From IMG/VR virus record IMGVR_UViG_2541047950_000002, positions 1-51,620 of that record: 51,620 nucleotides of DNA. One strand, written 5' to 3'. Source of the DNA: a virus (Duplodnaviria > Heunggongvirae > Uroviricota > Caudoviricetes). The notes below the pieces were generated by a model. It searched no databases. It was not told the DNA's origin and saw nothing but the letters and a program-made list of their open reading frames with translations. Each line of letters opens with the position of its first letter. Position 1 is the stretch's first letter. This document shows, piece by piece, positions 6,028-17,650 of this stretch. The translations under genes and the position numbers were made by a program.

Positions 6028-6075
6028 TTTGTTGCTCCTCATCATATCGACCCTGCAAGGTCGGTTGGTTTCTCC

Positions 6076-6174
6076 ACAAAACAGAGAAGAACACCTGCGG
6101 TGGCAGCCGCCCGGATGGATTGGGTTATGAGCCCGTCGTCCGGTGATGCTCTTCTCTGTTTTGTAAAAAGAGCG
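6076..6174 (-). promoter_or_regulatory. boxA-like motif plus long stem-loop in the pL leader (candidate nut/put-like RNA element)
   Basis: On the - strand CGCTCTTTTTACAA (6161-6174) runs into an 18-bp inverted repeat, 6147-6164 pairing with 6076-6093 at 17 of 18 positions, 48 nt upstream of the first early gene. Confidence 0.4.
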
Positions 6175-6704
6175 GTACCAGCCGGAAGCAAGTGTACAAA
6201 CTGGTACTGCCAAAGCAGTGGCTGTTGTGGTGACCGGTGCTGATCTCCGGCTTGCGGTTATTTCAGACTCTCACGGGCGTTTGATTGCCCCGCCGAACAG
6301 CTCTTTTCCGCAATAGCTGCAATGTCTTTCGCGCATCAGCCTGCGCATTCACCACAACGCTGAGAGCATTGCCGGTGTCCGAATCGAACGGACCTTTTCC
6401 CTGCCCAACCCTCCCATCTGAATGGGACTGTCTGGAATTGAACCAGCACTTATGCCTTGCTCGTCAATGCTCTCATCGTTGCGTCCTGGTCTCTTCCCAG
6501 GCGTCAAACCGAATCGCCACGCTGGTTAGGCGTCTTATCAGCATCCTCATTGACTTGCACATTCCGGCTACCTGGTTTGTTTGCCCGAGCAAGGAGTGGA
6601 TTGTCCCCTTTAACGTCCCCAGACCGCTAACGACGCATGTGCCATACGCCGTGTTACAACCAAATTTTGTTAGGACCTTGTTTGTTGGTCTGGAAAGAAA
6701 GATA

Positions 6705-6760
6705 AAATGAAATTGCGCATTATACAAGTGTTTTGTTGCGAGATGCGCAATATGATGGGT
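6705..6760 (-). promoter_or_regulatory. leftward early promoter pL with oL operator repeats
   Basis: Perfect TATAAT on the - strand (6719-6724) flanked by TTGCGCA and TGCGCAA motifs matching those in the cI-cro intergenic region. Confidence 0.5.
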
Positions 6761-6784
6761 GATGAAAAGCCACCTTCTGGTGGC
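6761..6784 (-). terminator. terminator of the repressor transcript
   Basis: Hairpin GCCACC-TTCT-GGTGGC (6769-6784) followed on the - strand by a T-run; lies between the cI stop and pL. Confidence 0.5.
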
Positions 6785-6805
6785 TAATTGATGAGGAGGT
6801 CGGGG

Positions 6806-7498
6806 TTAATTGTGTCGCTTAAGGGTTTGTGACTGACTGATTAAGACCTTCCCAAAGACCATAAACCGGTGTTCATTTTCGCTGGTAATTCCCCATTCAC
6901 GGTAAATCTGGTTATCAGAAATTACCAGTAGTTTGTCAGGTATCATTTGCAGTCGTTTGACATAAATTTTATCATCAAAACCAAACACATAGATACCATC
7001 CCCATCAAACTGATTGATACTGATATCAACGAAGATGAGATCTCCTGGCTCAATGGTTGGACACATACTGTCCCCACGAACGTTGATAACTTTAATGTGA
7101 TTGGCTGGTCGTCCTCCAAACATCGATACAGCATTATCAGTTATGTATTCAATGGCATGAATCACATCAATGACATCACCGCCCTGGATAAGGCCATTTC
7201 CCGCACTGGCACTGACATCCAGCATTTCAATACGGAATACATCCTTCACCTGCGCAACATCCTCACCAGTACTGTTTTTACATACAGTATTACTTTTGAA
7301 GTCTGAGGTAAAGAGATCTGCAATATCAACACCTAAGCTCCTGGCAATATTACTCAGGGCTTGTTCAGTGAATTGTTTCTGCTTACCTGTTTCCAGGCGT
7401 GAGATATTCGCCGCATCCACTCCTATTGCTTCAGCGAGATCGGCGATTTTCATGTTCTTCGCCTGGCGAAGTTGTCTGACTCGATTTCCTATGTTCAT
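6806..7498 (-). CDS. CI-like prophage repressor (XRE HTH plus S24 LexA-like peptidase domain)
   Basis: 230 aa; N-terminal HTH (NIGNRVRQLRQAKNMKIADLAEAIGV); C-terminal S24-type domain (RGDSMCPTIEPGDLIFVD); divergent from the cro-like gene. Confidence 0.85.
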   Translation of the reverse strand: MNIGNRVRQLRQAKNMKIADLAEAIGVDAANISRLETGKQKQFTEQALSNIARSLGVDIADLFTSDFKSNTVCKNSTGEDVAQVKDVFRIEMLDVSASAGNGLIQGGDVIDVIHAIEYITDNAVSMFGGRPANHIKVINVRGDSMCPTIEPGDLIFVDISINQFDGDGIYVFGFDDKIYVKRLQMIPDKLLVISDNQIYREWGITSENEHRFMVFGKVLISQSQTLKRHN

Positions 7499-7595: not shown

Positions 7596-7856
7596 ATGCA
7601 ATCACCATTACGAAATGTGCGTAAGGCGCACGGATTTACTTTGCAGCATGTTGCTGCGGGTGTTCAGGTTAATCCAGCGACGCTGAGTCGTATTGAGAGA
7701 CTGGAACAAATTCCATCTATCGATCTGGCAGAGCGTCTGGCCAATTTTTTTAAGGGAGAAATCAGCGAAATGCAGATTCTCTATCCTGCTCGCTTTCAAT
7801 CTAGTCAAAACCGGAATGAGTTAAAACCACAGGAAAAGGAGGTAAGCCGTGGGTAA
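7596..7856 (+). CDS. Cro-like HTH regulator
   Basis: 86 aa; HTH (HGFTLQHVAAGVQVNPATLSRIE); GGAGG RBS; divergent from cI. Confidence 0.65.
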   Translation: MQSPLRNVRKAHGFTLQHVAAGVQVNPATLSRIERLEQIPSIDLAERLANFFKGEISEMQILYPARFQSSQNRNELKPQEKEVSRG

Positions 7857-8400
7857 GCATCACTGGAAAGTGGAAAAACAGCCTGAGTGGTACGTGAAAG
7901 CGGTCAGAAAAACTATCGCGGCGTTGCCGGGTGGTTACGCTGAAGCAGCTGAGTGGCTGGATGTAACAGAGAACGCTTTATTCAATCGCCTTCGTGCCGA
8001 TGGCGATCAGATTTTCCCGCTGGGATGGGCAATGATTTTACAGCGCGCGGCTGGCACTCACTACATTGCGGATGCTGTCGCACAGTCTGCTGGTGGGGTG
8101 TTTGTATCGCTTCCTGACATTGAGGAAGTAGAGAACGCCGATATAAACCAGCGCCTGCTGGAAGTCATCGAACAGATCGGGAGTTACTCAAAGCAGATTC
8201 GTTCGGCAATCGAAGATGGGGTAGTGGAGCCACACGAGCAGACAGCAATGAATGATGAGTTGTATCTGTCAATTTCGAAGCTCCAGGAGCATGCGGCACT
8301 GGTCTACAAAATTTTCTGCGCTCCAGAAAAGAGTGACGCCCGCGAGTGTGCAGCTCCGGGCGTCGTGGCGTTTTGTGTCTGTGGAGAAACTAACGCATGA
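7849..8400 (+). CDS. CII-like regulatory protein (CP76-type)
   Basis: 183 aa with GTG start overlapping the cro end; position and recalled family similarity. Confidence 0.45.
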   Translation: MGKHHWKVEKQPEWYVKAVRKTIAALPGGYAEAAEWLDVTENALFNRLRADGDQIFPLGWAMILQRAAGTHYIADAVAQSAGGVFVSLPDIEEVENADINQRLLEVIEQIGSYSKQIRSAIEDGVVEPHEQTAMNDELYLSISKLQEHAALVYKIFCAPEKSDARECAAPGVVAFCVCGETNA

Positions 8401-9560
8401 ACAGTTTAACGGCAAATAACCGTTTGTCGCAACAGCTGGTGGTCAGTGTCGCTGCACACCTGTTGTTACGGCATGAATGCAGATTACCAAATCACCTGGC
8501 TGTAAGTAACCACAGAGAACTTTACCTGACTGTGGGGGGCGAGTTGTGCAGGAACTTAACCGCTGGTTTCGTGACGGAAGAGGACTTTATGTTCATGTTA
8601 TTCGTTGGGAGCCAGAAACACAGCGCGTTATCTATCTTCGCAAAGACTACCCGCATGAGTGCTTTAGTCCTTTGTGGAAATTCAGGCGTGATTTTGTTGA
8701 GTGTGAAGGACCACCAGCATATTGATTCTGCAATTCCGGGACGTTACACTGTACCGGCACCTTATAAAGCGGGTGCCGGGATTGGCGTCCTGAAATTGAT
8801 TACTGAGCATAACCGCGCTCATGCGGTTTTTTCGTGTCATGAGCATTGCTACGCCCAAATTATGGTGGGGCGTACAGGGCCGACTTCGGTCGGGCCGGGT
8901 TCGGTAGTCTCCGGTAACGCCAACCCTGTACGTCTCACCACCTCTGTGATTGGCGTCCCATGTGGTGAGTTTTCTAAAAAACTGACTACCGGGGCTGTCA
9001 CTATGACTACTCTCCCAACCCTCTCTCAACCTGAAATTGCCATCGTTGATGGTCAGGCTGTTACATCTTCTTTGGCTGTTGCTGACTTCTTCTCTAAACG
9101 TCATGACGATGTTCTGAAAAAGATCCGCATTTTGGATTGTTCTCCAGAGTTTTGTGCCCGCAATTTTGCGGAGACATCAATTTTGGTACGCCAGCCCAAC
9201 GGCGGTACTCGCAAACTTCCTTGCTATCAAATCACCCGCGACGGTTTTGCGTTTCTTGCCATGGGCTTCACTGGTAAACGTGCTGCCCGGTTCAAAGAGG
9301 CATACATCAACGCCTTTAACCTGATGGAGAAACAGCTTTCAAAGCCCGCTGTACCGAGCGACGTTGCACATAACGCCAGCGTTCTCTGTTCCTACATTTC
9401 ATCAATTCATCAGGTCTGGCTGCAGCAGCTTTATCCTATGTTGGCAAAAGCCGAATCTCCGCTGGCTGTTAGCTTATATGACTATATTAATGATGCTTCG
9501 GCGCTGGCCTGCCTCATAAATTTGTCGCTGAACCCTTCAGAGGCAAGGGGGCGCAAATGA
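8397..9560 (+). CDS. ORF with C-terminal Rha (pRha) domain; N-terminal 200 aa unassigned (alternative start 9003)
   Basis: ATG at 8397 overlaps the upstream stop (ATGA); residues from MTTLPTLSQ (nt 9003) onward resemble Rha regulatory proteins; a second frame is also open over 8507-8722. Confidence 0.45.
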   Translation: MNSLTANNRLSQQLVVSVAAHLLLRHECRLPNHLAVSNHRELYLTVGGELCRNLTAGFVTEEDFMFMLFVGSQKHSALSIFAKTTRMSALVLCGNSGVILLSVKDHQHIDSAIPGRYTVPAPYKAGAGIGVLKLITEHNRAHAVFSCHEHCYAQIMVGRTGPTSVGPGSVVSGNANPVRLTTSVIGVPCGEFSKKLTTGAVTMTTLPTLSQPEIAIVDGQAVTSSLAVADFFSKRHDDVLKKIRILDCSPEFCARNFAETSILVRQPNGGTRKLPCYQITRDGFAFLAMGFTGKRAARFKEAYINAFNLMEKQLSKPAVPSDVAHNASVLCSYISSIHQVWLQQLYPMLAKAESPLAVSLYDYINDASALACLINLSLNPSEARGRK

Positions 9561-9781
9561 TCCGGAATATTTTCAAACGTTTTACCAATCAGACTTTCCG
9601 TTGTCCTCGTCCGGGTCAGTGGTACACCACGCCTGCAGGGCATGTTCTACGTGTTAGCCTGGTTGACCGTGAATGTCAGAAGGTGATTTGTGAACCGCTG
9701 GGCCGTAATTACCGCGTCAGTATGCCGCTTATAGCCTTTCGCTCCGGAAAAAACATGAAGCATCTCGGAGGTGCAGCATGA
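9557..9781 (+). CDS. hypothetical small protein, 74 aa
   Basis: ATGA overlaps at both ends couple it to its neighbours. Confidence 0.4.
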   Translation: MIRNIFKRFTNQTFRCPRPGQWYTTPAGHVLRVSLVDRECQKVICEPLGRNYRVSMPLIAFRSGKNMKHLGGAA

Positions 9782-16335: not shown

Positions 16336-16411
16336 GGCCCTTTAGCTCAGTGGTGAGAGCGAGCGACTCATAATCGCCAGGTCGCTGGTTCAAATCCAGC
16401 AAGGGCCACCA
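16336..16411 (+). tRNA. tRNA with anticodon CAT (Met or Ile2-type)
   Basis: Manual cloverleaf: 7-bp acceptor GGCCCTT/AAGGGCC, anticodon loop CTCATAA, T-loop TTCAAAT, encoded 3' CCA. Confidence 0.8.
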
Positions 16412-16420
16412 TATCACATA

Positions 16421-16497
16421 CCGCCATTAGCTCATCGGGATAGAGCGTCAGCCTTCGAAGCTGGTTGCGCGGGGTTCGAGTCCTCGATGGCGGTCCA
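16421..16497 (+). tRNA. tRNA-Arg (anticodon TCG)
   Basis: Acceptor CCGCCAT/ATGGCGG, anticodon loop CTTCGAA, T-loop TTCGAGT, encoded CCA. Confidence 0.7.
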
Positions 16498-16510
16498 TTA
16501 TCGGTATTCA

Positions 16511-16587
16511 GCGTTGTTAGCTCAGCCGGACAGAGCAATTGCCTTCTAAGCAATCGGTCACTGGTTCGAATCCAGTACAACGCGCCA
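16511..16587 (+). tRNA. tRNA-Arg (anticodon TCT, reads AGA)
   Basis: Acceptor GCGTTGT/ACAACGC, anticodon stem ATTGC/GCAAT with loop CTTCTAA, T-loop TTCGAAT, encoded CCA. Confidence 0.8.
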
Positions 16588-17349: not shown

Positions 17350-17596
17350 CCGGGTATCAGTCATGCCCCGAAAATTTTAAATGTCTCACAATTCAGACGG
17401 TTGACAGTTGTCTGTTTTGCGGGGAGTTTGTTAAAAGAAACAGGCATGGTGAATCCCCCTGAGCGGAGGGGCGACTGGTGCATTAGGTGTTATCTTTGAT
17501 ACCCAGGAAAGTAAACGCGCGGGTTTGGTGGCACCGGGCTGAACTCACCGGGAGGCACCCGGCATCATGCGCATGATGATACAGATACGCGGCTTT

Positions 17597-17622
17597 AGCC
17601 CCTCTCCGGAGGGGCTTTTATA
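17597..17622 (+). terminator. rho-independent terminator
   Basis: Perfect hairpin AGCCCCTC-TCCG-GAGGGGCT followed by TTTTATATGAATTTT. Confidence 0.6.
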
Positions 17623-17650
17623 TGAATTTTGTAAGATATGAGTAAACTAA

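What the first reader, a model, noticed from the sequence alone, without database searches (positions are those of the whole stretch)
8397..9003. Ambiguous coding between the CII-like and Rha-domain genes: two overlapping open frames
An ATG at 8397 overlaps the cII-like stop (ATGA), the same coupling seen at nearly every junction of this operon, and stays open for 387 codons into the Rha-like domain, which would then be C-terminal (atypical). A second frame is also open over 8507-8722 and encodes a Trp/Arg-rich segment (RWFRDGRGLYVHVIRWEPETQRVIYLRKDYPHECFSPLWKF) with no ATG start. This could be a gene fusion, an overlapping gene or a frameshifted product.
Basis: seen in the sequence. Interest (0 to 1): 0.4.

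Follow-up and report, generated by a model that had tools for sequence, protein, structure and literature searches.

The report
Immunity RNAs embedded in antirepressor reading frame
The "ambiguous" stretch is a known type of phage switch: two small regulatory RNAs and a small overlapping gene lie inside a long reading frame that leads into an antirepressor gene, as in satellite phage P4, so it is a tidy example rather than a new kind of system.

Summary
ATG 8397 overlaps the cII/YmfL-like stop and stays open for 387 codons. A second frame is open over 8510-8722.

The stretch is not one ordinary gene. It contains:
- a YmfM-like N-terminal peptide (8397 to about 8516);
- a real overlapping DUF4222 gene in the second frame (GTG 8546-8725, pN/pS 0.10);
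- a promoter aligned with Gifsy-1 PisrK;
- an isrK/seqA-like sRNA with terminator (8757-8833);
- a C4/CI-like antisense RNA (8858-8945), whose loops pair with sites at 8950-8956 and 8984-8991 over the ribosome-binding site of the Rha gene (ATG 9003).

Protein-level constraint starts only at about 9003. From 8757 to 8996 amino acids are unconstrained (pN/pS about 1). Yet the frame has no stop in 64 of 66 relatives, all indels are multiples of three, and the same frame is open in 14 of 18 diverged cassette lineages.

This matches P4 eta/kil, a long ORF coupled to the upstream gene that spans seqA and CI, with a nested shorter gene. I infer that translation from pR transcripts overrides RNA immunity.

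It is a new member of a known kind. The frameshift idea has no support.

The parts
7849..8400 (+). cII-like / YmfL gene. Its TGA overlaps ATG 8397 (ATGA).
   Evidence: PF06892 at E = 2.6e-14. PGAP names it ymfL in the 100%-identical genome.
8397..9560 (+). Long frame-0 ORF of 387 codons, the eta-like read-through frame. It is translationally coupled to ymfL, spans everything listed below, and ends in the Rha domain.
   Evidence: ORF listed. Open in 64 of 66 unique relatives. All indels are multiples of 3. The equivalent frame has 0 stops in 14 of 18 cassette lineages. Phage_ASH matches aa 117-212 and Rha matches aa 223-312.
8397..8516 (+). YmfM-like N-terminal peptide segment (MNSLTAN...), with weak protein-level constraint.
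   Evidence: Within-family pN/pS is 0.32-0.44. Homologous ORFs start at the ymfL stop in K-12 e14, Mangrovibacter, Erwinia, Scandinavium and Limnobaculum, with frame-specific pN/pS of 0.32-0.38.
8546..8725 (+). DUF4222 small protein gene (59 aa) in the second frame, with a GTG start and Shine-Dalgarno GGGGGG at 8534-8539.
   Evidence: PF13973 at E = 9.4e-14 and full-length phrog_1343. pN/pS is 0.10 against 1.5 for frame 0. Variable sites by its codon position 1/2/3 are 10/6/24. GTG is conserved in 26 of 26.
8722..8750 (+). Internal promoter (PisrK / P4 PLE equivalent): -35 TTGATT at 8722-8727, 17-nt spacer, -10 TACACT at 8745-8750. The -35 overlaps the DUF4222 stop codon.
   Evidence: It aligns position for position with the hexamers TTGACA-17-TATATT that I read upstream of the Rfam isrK start in Gifsy-1, and with the other cassettes. 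PMC4825925 shows functionally that a PisrK promoter exists in that region. It falls below the threshold of the generic scan (8 of 12 matches).
8757..8833 (+). isrK / seqA-like sRNA. It carries C4 target copies a1 (TTGGCGT, 8782-8788) and b1 (GATTACTG, 8798-8805, two G.U pairs) and an intrinsic terminator (stem 8811-8828, T run to 8832).
   Evidence: Rfam RF01394 at 59.3 bits (gathering score 50). Terminator found. a1 complementarity found; b1 read from the sequence.
8858..8945 (+). C4 / CI-like antisense RNA. It contains the conserved ATG 8862 (first AUG of Gifsy-1 orf45, here in frame 0), loop b' (CGGTAGTC, 8902-8909) and a' (ACGCCAA, 8917-8923).
   Evidence: Rfam RF01695 at 82.3 bits (gathering score 45). 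12 of 27 stem pairs show compensatory changes across 18 lineages. ATG 8862 is conserved in 26 of 26.
8950..8994 (+). Downstream target region: a2 (TTGGCGT, 8950-8956), anti-stem copy (GTGGTGAG, 8962-8969), and b2 (GACTACCG, 8984-8991) overlapping the G-rich Shine-Dalgarno at 8991-8994 of the Rha gene.
   Evidence: Exact complementarity to the C4 loops at fixed offsets (+93 and +124 to +127). The loop and target sequences change together across the 18 lineages. The P1 record annotates a2 and b2 in the same layout.
9003..9560 (+). Nested Rha-type (Bro-network) antirepressor or regulator gene, 185 aa.
   Evidence: ATG is conserved in 25 of 26, and pN/pS falls to 0.04-0.45 from about 9057 onward. 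TIGR02681 positions 5-106 match aa 12-114. The start peptide MTTLPTLSQPEI aligns with the P4 Kil start MATTLTPSHPEF.

Best explanation
The stretch 8397-9003 is a P4/P1-type RNA immunity cassette sitting inside a long read-through reading frame of the pR operon of a lambdoid (e14/SfV/ST64B-like) prophage.

Shown here:
- An internal promoter drives an isrK/seqA-like sRNA that ends at its own terminator.
- Downstream lies a C4/CI-like RNA. Its two single-stranded segments are complementary to two sites in isrK and two sites just upstream of ATG 9003, one of which overlaps the ribosome-binding site of the Rha gene.
- A separate 59-aa DUF4222 gene is encoded in the second frame.
- Frame 0 starts with a YmfM-like peptide coupled to the cII-like gene by ATGA. 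It is kept free of stops across DUF4222, the promoter and both RNAs into the Rha gene, although its amino acids are unconstrained between about 8517 and 8996.

Inferred, by analogy with P4 eta/kil, P1 c4-icd-ant and Gifsy-1 isrK-orf45-anrP:
- In the lysogen only the internal promoter fires. Most transcripts stop at the isrK terminator. Read-through is processed to the C4-like RNA, which occludes the Rha ribosome-binding site and probably provokes termination, so the antirepressor stays off.
- When pR is derepressed, ribosomes pass from ymfL into frame 0. They translate through the terminator and the C4 target sites and so prevent hairpin formation and antisense pairing. The result is an immunity-insensitive 387-aa product carrying the Rha domain, plus continued transcription into the replication genes.
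- Shorter in-frame products from ATG 8862 (232 aa) and ATG 9003 (185 aa) would come from internal-promoter read-through.
For: RNA genes:
- Rfam isrK scores 59.3 bits and C4 82.3 bits, both above their gathering scores.
- An intrinsic terminator lies at 8811-8828.
- The promoter hexamers align with hexamers I read upstream of the Rfam isrK start in Gifsy-1. PMC4825925 shows functionally that a PisrK promoter exists in that region.
- 12 of 27 C4 stem pairs are compensatory.
- Loop and target complementarity is kept at fixed positions while the sequences differ across the 18 lineages.
- The fold of 8757-9010 has z = -4.0.

Coding tests:
- The DUF4222 frame has pN/pS 0.10 with a third-position excess.
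- Frame-0 pN/pS is 0.3-0.44 at 8397-8516, 0.74 or higher at 8517-8636, undefined at 8637-8696 (pS = 0), 0.8-1.15 at 8757-8996, and 0.04-0.45 inside Rha.

Frame maintenance:
- 64 of 66 relatives (80-99% identity) have no frame-0 stop over 640 nt. The other two frames carry more than 20 different polymorphic stop positions between them.
- All indels are 3 or 6 nt.
- In 14 of 18 lineages the frame of the conserved ATG has 0 stops over 246 nt, against means of 2.2 and 3.3 in the other frames and 3.1 in shuffles.
- In those lineages the frame is open for at least 58 codons upstream, so it starts before the internal promoter.
- In 12 of 18 its first ATG abuts the stop of an upstream ORF.

P4 precedent, checked here:
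- The eta ORF (L223 8767-8168) is joined by ATGA to ORF88 and contains the Rfam isrK and C4 hits.
- Pfam Phage_ASH covers exactly that part of Eta (82 bits) and the corresponding part of the window ORF (42 bits).
- The Kil start aligns with ATG 9003.

Literature:
- The P4 mechanism is summarised in PMC10111431, citing Forti et al. 1999.
- Translation of the leader ORF from the conserved AUG, and coupling to anrP, were shown in Gifsy-1 (PMC4825925).
- The P1 record annotates a1, b1, c4, a2, b2, icd and ant in the same order.
Against: - There are no expression data for this element. Translation of frame 0 from 8397 and its anti-termination effect are inferred only.
- The internal promoter is a weak consensus match (8 of 12) and was not called by the generic scan.
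- Frame 0 would have to be translated across an actively translated DUF4222 gene in another frame, which is unusual.
- Openness of frame 0 over 8546-8725 is partly inherited with the conserved DUF4222 sequence, so it is weak evidence on its own.
- The N-terminal segment in the window family is only mildly constrained. Frame 0 gives pN/pS 0.44 and frame 2 gives 0.50. It is too diverged from the clearly coding type A/B peptides to compare.
- Four of 18 lineages, including the only experimentally studied lambdoid case (Gifsy-1), lack the long frame. The cassette therefore works without it.
- The 18 lineages are not fully independent.
- A phage N-type antiterminator could also carry pR transcription through the terminator without any need for translation.
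Confidence: 0.65

Rival explanations
1. Annotation artefact. The only real features are DUF4222, the two RNAs and a Rha gene that starts at 9003. The long frame is open only because conserved, G+C-rich structured RNA happens to lack stops in one frame, and it is never translated.
For: pN/pS is about 1 and there is no codon periodicity over 8757-8996. Gifsy-1 and three other lineages have stops in that frame, and in Gifsy-1 the region is annotated as intergenic. PGAP and GenBank submitters disagree on the start: 8397, 8595 or 8697.
Against: The same sequences carry 2-3 stops per 246 nt in each of the other two frames, at many polymorphic positions, and none in frame 0. Indels are all multiples of 3. 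The frame extends upstream of the RNAs and abuts an upstream gene's stop in 12 of 18 lineages. P4 eta has the same layout and is reported to be translated (PMC10111431, citing Forti 1999). The leader ORF from the conserved AUG is translated in Gifsy-1 (PMC4825925).
Confidence: 0.2
2. True multidomain protein. The 387-aa product is a YmfM-Ash-Rha fusion whose Ash segment is a functional protein domain that happens to overlap RNA genes.
For: Pfam Phage_ASH and PHROG 821/995 model this segment as protein. Rha/Ash two-domain proteins are described in Stx phages (PMC8951638). The frame is conserved.
Against: Variable sites are spread evenly over codon positions: 15/15/12, 17/16/19 and 12/15/13. pN/pS is 0.8-1.15 at 20-30% divergence. 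Conservation follows RNA stems with compensatory changes that alter codons and follows the loop and target pairs. The Ash HMM maps exactly onto seqA-CI-seqC in P4.
Confidence: 0.1
3. Programmed ribosomal frameshift joining the DUF4222 frame to the Rha frame, or the reverse.
For: Two overlapping open frames exist over 8546-8722.
Against: DUF4222 has its own conserved GTG and Shine-Dalgarno sequence, its own stop, and a constant length of about 59 aa in homologues from several genera. I made no search for slippery sequences, so none is known. Frame 0 is already continuous from 8397, so no shift is needed.
Confidence: 0.02

Closest known systems
Satellite phage P4 immunity region: eta/kil nested genes containing seqA, CI RNA and seqC (Forti et al. 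1999, as summarised in PMC10111431)
   Same: A long ORF is coupled by ATGA to the upstream gene. It begins upstream of an internal promoter and contains an isrK/seqA-like and a C4/CI-like RNA. A shorter nested gene starts just after the downstream target sites, and the nested start peptides align. Pfam Phage_ASH covers the RNA-bearing part in both.
   Different: The host element is a lambdoid prophage and the upstream promoter is pR after cro and cII-like genes, not P4 PLL after an AlpA homologue. The nested gene is a 185-aa Rha regulator, not the 65-aa Icd-like Kil. The window ORF also begins with a YmfM-like peptide and overlaps a DUF4222 gene. The isrK part carries an obvious intrinsic terminator.
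Phage P1/P7 immI operon: P51-a1b1-c4-a2b2-icd-ant1/ant2
   Same: The order of target copies, antisense RNA and targets is the same, and b2 lies 11-19 nt upstream of the first translated gene. The cargo is an antirepressor, and in-frame nested antirepressor isoforms exist (P1 record). That C4 blocks translation and thereby causes termination is my own knowledge of Citron and Schuster 1990 and Biere et al. 1992.
   Different: P1 has no upstream gene and no long frame. The conserved ATG is in frame with icd but is closed by a stop. P1 has icd between c4 and ant. The P1 promoters are under C1 control.
Salmonella Gifsy-1 isrK-orf45-anrP locus (Hershko-Shalev et al. 2016, PMC4825925)
   Same: Both share isrK with a promoter and terminator, a processed RNA of about 80 nt (STnc1160, which is the Rfam C4 hit), and a leader ORF that starts at the same conserved AUG and must be translated for the downstream antirepressor to be made.
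   Different: In Gifsy-1 the leader ORF has 45 codons, is out of frame and is coupled by AUGA, and the frame is closed immediately upstream. The locus follows antQ in the late region. AnrP is an ORF6N protein unrelated to the window Rha protein.
Phage N15 anti-immunity locus (CA RNA-icd-antABC; Ravin et al. 1999; own knowledge, not checked here)
   Same: A lambdoid-type phage in which a small processed RNA controls an antirepressor operon by premature termination.
E. coli K-12 e14 ymfL-ymfM
   Same: The ATGA junction is the same and the first residues (MNSLT...) are homologous. The frame likewise runs across a DUF4222 ORF.
   Different: e14 lacks isrK, C4 and Rha. The frame ends after 112 codons, just before the next gene. 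YmfM is reported as an SOS-inducible division inhibitor.

Membership tests
Rfam RF01695 C4 antisense RNA (clan CL00128; P1 C4 / P4 CI) | Covariance-model score at or above the gathering score, full length | tested here: met
   82.3 bits against 45, model positions 1-87 of 87, at 8858-8945.
Rfam RF01695 C4 antisense RNA (clan CL00128; P1 C4 / P4 CI) | Stem structure supported by compensatory changes | tested here: met
   12 of 27 pairs have double changes and almost none are broken, across 18 lineages.
Rfam RF01695 C4 antisense RNA (clan CL00128; P1 C4 / P4 CI) | Two single-stranded segments (a', b') complementary to target pairs upstream (a1, b1) and downstream (a2, b2), with the downstream pair at the ribosome-binding site of the first gene | tested here: met
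   a' 8917-8923 pairs with 8782-8788 and 8950-8956. b' 8902-8909 pairs with 8984-8991 exactly and with 8798-8805 through two G.U pairs. The pairs change together across the 18 lineages. The P1 record shows the same layout.
Rfam RF01695 C4 antisense RNA (clan CL00128; P1 C4 / P4 CI) | The RNA is processed from the leader transcript and represses the downstream gene | not testable with these tools
   Needs a Northern blot and reporter assays. This was shown for P1, P4 and Gifsy-1 only.
Rfam RF01394 isrK (P4 seqA-like) | Covariance-model score at or above the gathering score | tested here: met
   59.3 bits against 50, model positions 1-77 of 77, at 8757-8833.
Rfam RF01394 isrK (P4 seqA-like) | Own promoter and Rho-independent terminator | tested here: inconclusive
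   The terminator is found. The promoter hexamers TTGATT-17-TACACT align with hexamers I read upstream of isrK in Gifsy-1, but the match is below the consensus-scan threshold.
P4 eta/kil-type nested read-through ORF | A long ORF begins upstream of the internal promoter and spans the seqA-like and CI-like RNAs | tested here: met
   ORF 8397-9560 contains the promoter at 8722-8750, isrK and C4. P4 eta contains the Rfam isrK and C4 hits.
P4 eta/kil-type nested read-through ORF | Translational coupling to the upstream gene | tested here: met
   The ATGA overlap with ymfL is conserved in 26 of 26. P4 eta overlaps ORF88 by ATGA. The same holds in 12 of 18 lineages. This is sequence-level evidence only.
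P4 eta/kil-type nested read-through ORF | A nested shorter gene in the same frame starts after the downstream targets | tested here: met
   ATG 9003 is conserved in 25 of 26 and protein constraint begins there. It aligns with the Kil start.
P4 eta/kil-type nested read-through ORF | Translation of the long ORF prevents immunity-dependent termination | not testable with these tools
   Indirect support only: the frame is kept open without amino-acid constraint.
Pfam PF10554 Phage_ASH | HMM score above the gathering score | tested here: met
   41.9 bits against 26, at aa 117-212. P4 Eta scores 82.4 bits.
Pfam PF10554 Phage_ASH | Behaves as a protein domain, with purifying selection on amino acids | tested here: not met
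   pN/pS is 0.8-1.15 and there is no codon periodicity over 8757-8996.
Pfam PF09669 / TIGR02681 Rha regulatory protein | HMM score above the cut-off; protein-level constraint | tested here: met
   PF09669 gives 90.9 bits against 29.9. TIGR02681 gives 91.4 bits against 45.95. pN/pS is 0.04-0.45. Antirepressor activity was not tested.
Pfam PF13973 DUF4222 | HMM score above the cut-off; coding signature in that frame | tested here: met
   51.1 bits against 27. pN/pS is 0.10. 33 homologues, typically about 59 aa, were found.
YmfM (e14 division inhibitor) family | A homologous N-terminal peptide starting at the ymfL stop | tested here: inconclusive
   The first 13 or so residues and the junction are shared, and phrog_1170 hits aa 48-98. 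The window peptide lacks the YCYAV...HSFTEWAVGDF motif of K-12, Erwinia and Scandinavium. Comparison with type A is saturated.

The most novel reading that the evidence does not exclude
Across lambdoid prophages, Stx phages, P2-like phages and satellites, the Pfam 'Ash domain' is not a protein domain. It is the translated footprint of the seqA/isrK-CI/C4 immunity cassette, and its reading frame is kept open purely so that ribosomes arriving from an upstream, induction-dependent promoter can override RNA immunity. This would be a general translation-versus-antisense switch. In the e14/SfV/ST64B group it would additionally thread through a DUF4222 gene and start with a YmfM-like peptide related to a division inhibitor.
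Probability: 0.45. Interest if true: 0.5.

Novelty: new member of a known kind. Interest (0 to 1): 0.35.

Why it matters
It settles an annotation problem that recurs widely. A megablast of 8300-9100 matched 3,074 of 5,426 complete E. coli genomes, and 635 of those cover at least 80% of the query. The other matches are mostly partial and many hit only the ymfL end. GenBank and PGAP call this stretch in at least four incompatible ways.

It places control of a Rha-type antirepressor in these prophages, which include Stx-converting phages, under a P4/P1-type RNA immunity cassette. Published work on Stx-phage regulatory regions treats the Ash part as a protein domain of unknown function (PMC8951638).

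It also shows that the P4 eta principle, an open but unconstrained frame across immunity RNAs, is conserved in 14 of 18 diverged cassette lineages. That conservation gives a testable prediction about how induction bypasses RNA immunity.

Tried and rejected
- The generic sigma-70 scan did not call the internal promoter. I relied on alignment to hexamers I read upstream of isrK in Gifsy-1 instead.
- The C4-core DNA pattern scan of viral contigs returned many chance hits. I filtered them with an nhmmer profile.
- BLASTP of the whole ORF against P4 Eta is not significant (E = 0.4). Homology rests on Pfam, Rfam and layout.
- AnrP of Gifsy-1 is not homologous to the window Rha protein, so 'AnrP orthologue' was dropped.
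- An ungapped type A peptide comparison was misaligned by a one-codon indel and was redone. Window versus type A is saturated and uninformative.
- The 74-aa ORF at 9557-9781 looked DUF4222-like by eye but has no Pfam hit.
- The DUF4222 fold search gave only weak SH3/KOW/Tudor matches (best E = 0.048), so I make no functional claim.
- Forti 1999 and Sabbattini 1995 are not held in the library. The P4 mechanism is cited through PMC10111431 and my own recollection.
- Frameshifting was considered and rejected.
Full report
OBSERVATION

The window carries the immunity region of a lambdoid prophage of the e14/SfV/ST64B/mEp460 type:
- an S24 repressor at 6806-7498 (-);
- a cro-like gene at 7596-7856;
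- a cII/YmfL-like gene at 7849-8400 (PF06892);
- an ORF at 8397-9560 (387 aa) whose ATG overlaps the ymfL TGA.

Frame 0 has no stop from 8391 to 9560. The second frame is open over 8510-8722. For this composition, 202 open codons have P = 6e-5, and 1 of 20,000 shuffles was open.

The sequence is 100% identical to a prophage of E. coli RM14516 and 99.9% identical to phage 1720a-02. Annotators disagree on what is here:
- Stx2a_1447, mEp460 and ST64B call the long ORF.
- 1720a-02 calls the 59-aa ORF plus a 287-aa antirepressor.
- PGAP calls a truncated DUF4222 pseudogene plus a 321-aa Rha protein.
- Ayreon labels its long ORF 'immunity region'.

WHAT IS INSIDE

Rfam finds two RNA families above their gathering scores within the finding: isrK (8757-8833, 59.3 bits) and C4 antisense RNA (8858-8945, 82.3 bits).

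Pfam gives three relevant hits:
- Rha at aa 223-312 of the long ORF.
- Phage_ASH at aa 117-212, which corresponds to nt 8745-9032. This lies exactly over isrK, C4 and the sequence up to the Rha start.
- DUF4222 (E = 9e-14) for the second-frame ORF 8546-8725. That ORF has a GTG start preceded by GGGGGG.

An intrinsic terminator (8811-8828 plus a T run) ends isrK. TTGATT-17-TACACT at 8722-8750 aligns position for position with hexamers I read upstream of the Rfam isrK start in Gifsy-1. PMC4825925 shows functionally that a PisrK promoter exists in that region.

The C4 loop CGGTAGTC (8902-8909) and the single-stranded ACGCCAA (8917-8923) are complementary to:
- GACTACCG (8984-8991, overlapping the G-rich Shine-Dalgarno of ATG 9003) and TTGGCGT (8950-8956) downstream;
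- TTGGCGT (8782-8788) and GATTACTG (8798-8805, two G.U pairs) inside isrK.

This is the a1-b1 / a'-b' / a2-b2 layout annotated in the P1 record.

In 18 lineages of the cassette (no more than 85% identical to one another), the loop sequences differ but their targets change with them, at the same offsets. 12 of 27 C4 stem pairs show compensatory changes.

CODING TESTS

I aligned 66 unique relatives (80-99% identity) of 8397-9036.

- DUF4222 frame: variable sites by its codon position 1/2/3 are 10/6/24, and pN/pS is 0.10. Frame 0 over the same stretch gives 1.5. The second frame is therefore a real gene.
- isrK, C4 and target segments: variable sites fall evenly on the three positions (15/15/12, 17/16/19, 12/15/13). 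pN/pS is 0.8-1.2 in every frame at 20-30% divergence.
- Sliding frame-0 pN/pS:
  - 0.3-0.44 at 8397-8516
  - 0.74 or higher at 8517-8636
  - undefined at 8637-8696 (pS = 0)
  - 0.20 at 8697-8756 (few changes; this is the promoter region)
  - 0.8-1.15 at 8757-8996
  - 0.04-0.45 from 9057 onward
- ATG 9003 is conserved in 25 of 26 relatives. The TIGR02681 Rha model starts at residue 12 of the protein that begins at 9003. The functional Rha protein therefore begins at about 9003.

THE FRAME IS NEVERTHELESS MAINTAINED

- Frame 0 has no stop over 640 nt in 64 of 66 relatives. Frames 1 and 2 between them carry more than 20 different polymorphic stop positions downstream of 8757.
- Every indel is 3 or 6 nt: at 8447, 8717, 8835, 8951 and 8976.
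- All C4 copies contain a conserved ATG (8862 here), which is the first AUG of Gifsy-1 orf45.
- In 14 of 18 lineages the frame of that ATG has 0 stops over -101 to +145. The other frames average 2.2 and 3.3 stops, and shuffles average 3.1.
- In those lineages the frame is open for at least 58 codons upstream, which puts its start before the internal promoter. It runs at least 88 codons downstream into the cargo gene.
- In 12 of 18 lineages its first ATG abuts the stop codon of an upstream ORF.
- The exceptions are Gifsy-1 and three other lineages. They have a short leader ORF of 30-50 codons that starts at the same ATG.

THE START OF THE FRAME

ORFs beginning MNSLT/MSNLT/MISLT at the ymfL stop occur in K-12 e14 (YmfM), Citrobacter, Mangrovibacter, Scandinavium, Erwinia and Limnobaculum. 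There are two peptide types:
- Type A: FRYERMVSGRWV.CNHSRA.
- Type B (YmfM-like): YCYAV.VPG...HSFTEWAVGDF.

Both show frame-specific constraint, with pN/pS 0.38 and 0.32 against about 1.0-1.6 in the other frames. The ATG at the ymfL stop is therefore a real translation start in this gene family. The window's version is a diverged relative with only mild constraint.

In K-12 and Mangrovibacter this frame also runs across the DUF4222 ORF. It stops next to the start of the following gene.

COMPARISON WITH KNOWN SYSTEMS

In P4 (L223), the 199-codon eta ORF (8767-8168, minus strand) overlaps the ORF88 stop by ATGA. It contains the Rfam isrK hit (8692-8615) and the C4 hit (8507-8420).

Pfam Phage_ASH matches Eta at aa 22-146 (82 bits). 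That is the RNA-bearing part.

The Kil start (MATTLTPSHPEF) aligns with the window's MTTLPTLSQPEI. Kil itself is Icd-like.

PMC10111431, citing Forti et al. 1999, summarises the mechanism as follows:
- An internal constitutive promoter gives a transcript that terminates through the CI/seqA interactions and is processed to CI.
- Kil is translated only on read-through.
- Full-length Eta is translated only from the upstream promoter and is coupled to the alpA homologue.
- Eta translation prevents termination.

Barquist et al. (PMC3632133) equate isrK with seqA and C4 with CI, and they note such cassettes in lambdoid prophages.

Hershko-Shalev et al. (PMC4825925) showed in Gifsy-1 that orf45 is translated, that its nucleotide sequence but not its peptide is conserved, and that it couples to anrP. 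They also showed that an RNA of about 80 nt is processed from it. They remarked that in Shigella dysenteriae orf45 seems fused to anrP (287 aa). A 287-aa ORF of the same length, from TTG 8697, is what the 1720a-02 record annotates here.

MECHANISM (INFERRED)

- Lysogen: only the internal promoter is active. It makes IsrK-like RNA and, by read-through and processing, C4-like RNA. The C4-like RNA masks the Rha ribosome-binding site.
- Induction: pR transcripts are translated continuously from ymfL into frame 0. Ribosomes then prevent formation of the isrK terminator and C4 pairing. This gives immunity-insensitive expression of a Rha-domain protein and read-through into the replication genes.

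I put 0.65 on this overall. The anatomy alone I put at about 0.9.

Rivals:
- Pure annotation artefact: 0.2.
- A true Ash protein domain: 0.1.
- Frameshifting: 0.02.

NOVELTY

The kind of system is known from P4, P1/P7, N15 and Gifsy-1. That CI and seqA homologues lie inside Bro-network genes has also been noted (PMC10111431).

What I found here and did not see stated in the papers I read:
- The Ash 'domain' of Rha/Ash proteins coincides with the RNA cassette and shows no amino-acid constraint. Stx-phage literature calls it a domain of unknown function.
- The open frame is conserved in 14 of 18 lineages.
- In this phage group the frame starts with a YmfM-like peptide and overlaps a DUF4222 gene.

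I file it as a new member of a known kind, with interest 0.35.

SIDE RESULT

The DUF4222 AlphaFold model (pLDDT 85) is a small five-stranded barrel with a short helix. It gives only weak SH3/KOW/Tudor matches.

Noticed in passing
L011 2102-2460 (E. coli K-12 e14): K-12 ymfM (112 aa, 2102-2440) is the homologue of the window's frame-0 start. Its C-terminal half overlaps a DUF4222 ORF (2281-2460, TTG start), which PGAP now annotates in place of ymfM. The ymfM clone reported to cause SOS-type filamentation also carries all but the last 20 nt of the DUF4222 ORF (six sense codons and the stop). My term searches of the preprint found no mention of a frameshift or stop-codon control. Which product is SfiC therefore remains open to a simple test.
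   Followed up: partly
L223 8168-8767 (-) (phage P4); window 8745-9032: Pfam PF10554 (Phage_ASH) matches P4 Eta over the seqA-CI-seqC region. It does not match P4 epsilon, which is PF25738. One survey of P4-like satellites nevertheless used PF10554 as its epsilon marker (PMC8628076).
   Followed up: partly
window 8546-8725: The AlphaFold model of DUF4222 (pLDDT 85) is a small five-stranded beta-barrel with a short helix. The best PDB matches are Spt5/NusG KOW, Tudor and SH3 domains, and none is significant (best E = 0.048). A KOW-like fold in an operon governed by termination is suggestive, but this is only a speculation.
   Followed up: partly
window 16336-16584 and 17415-17627: Rfam finds three tRNA genes and a full-length STnc100 sRNA (139 bits) further along the prophage.
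   Followed up: no
window 9557-9781: A 74-aa ORF, coupled by ATGA to the end of the Rha gene, sits immediately upstream of the replication gene. In the Scandinavium and Erwinia loci a DUF4222 gene occupies that position. The window ORF has no Pfam match.
   Followed up: partly
L007 2232-2795 (Gifsy-1), L008 1611-2059 (P88), L010 2559-2934: The isrK-C4 cassette precedes unrelated cargo genes: an ORF6N protein (AnrP) in Gifsy-1, short proteins without a Pfam domain in P88-like and Ayreon-like phages, and Rha in the window. In P88 the annotated 'derepression protein' (1755-1985) is in a different frame from the conserved long ORF. A minus-strand 'hypothetical protein' (1506-1694) lies over the RNAs and is probably spurious.
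   Followed up: partly
window about 6030-6805: About 780 nt between the yfdP-like gene and the repressor gene has no annotated gene in the identical and near-identical records. Only low-quality ORFs are listed there.
   Followed up: no
L146 and L222 (viral contigs): These are the only two of 66 relatives with a stop in frame 0. One follows a 1-nt indel near 8533 and the other has a stop near 8724. They may be decaying copies or sequencing errors.
   Followed up: no
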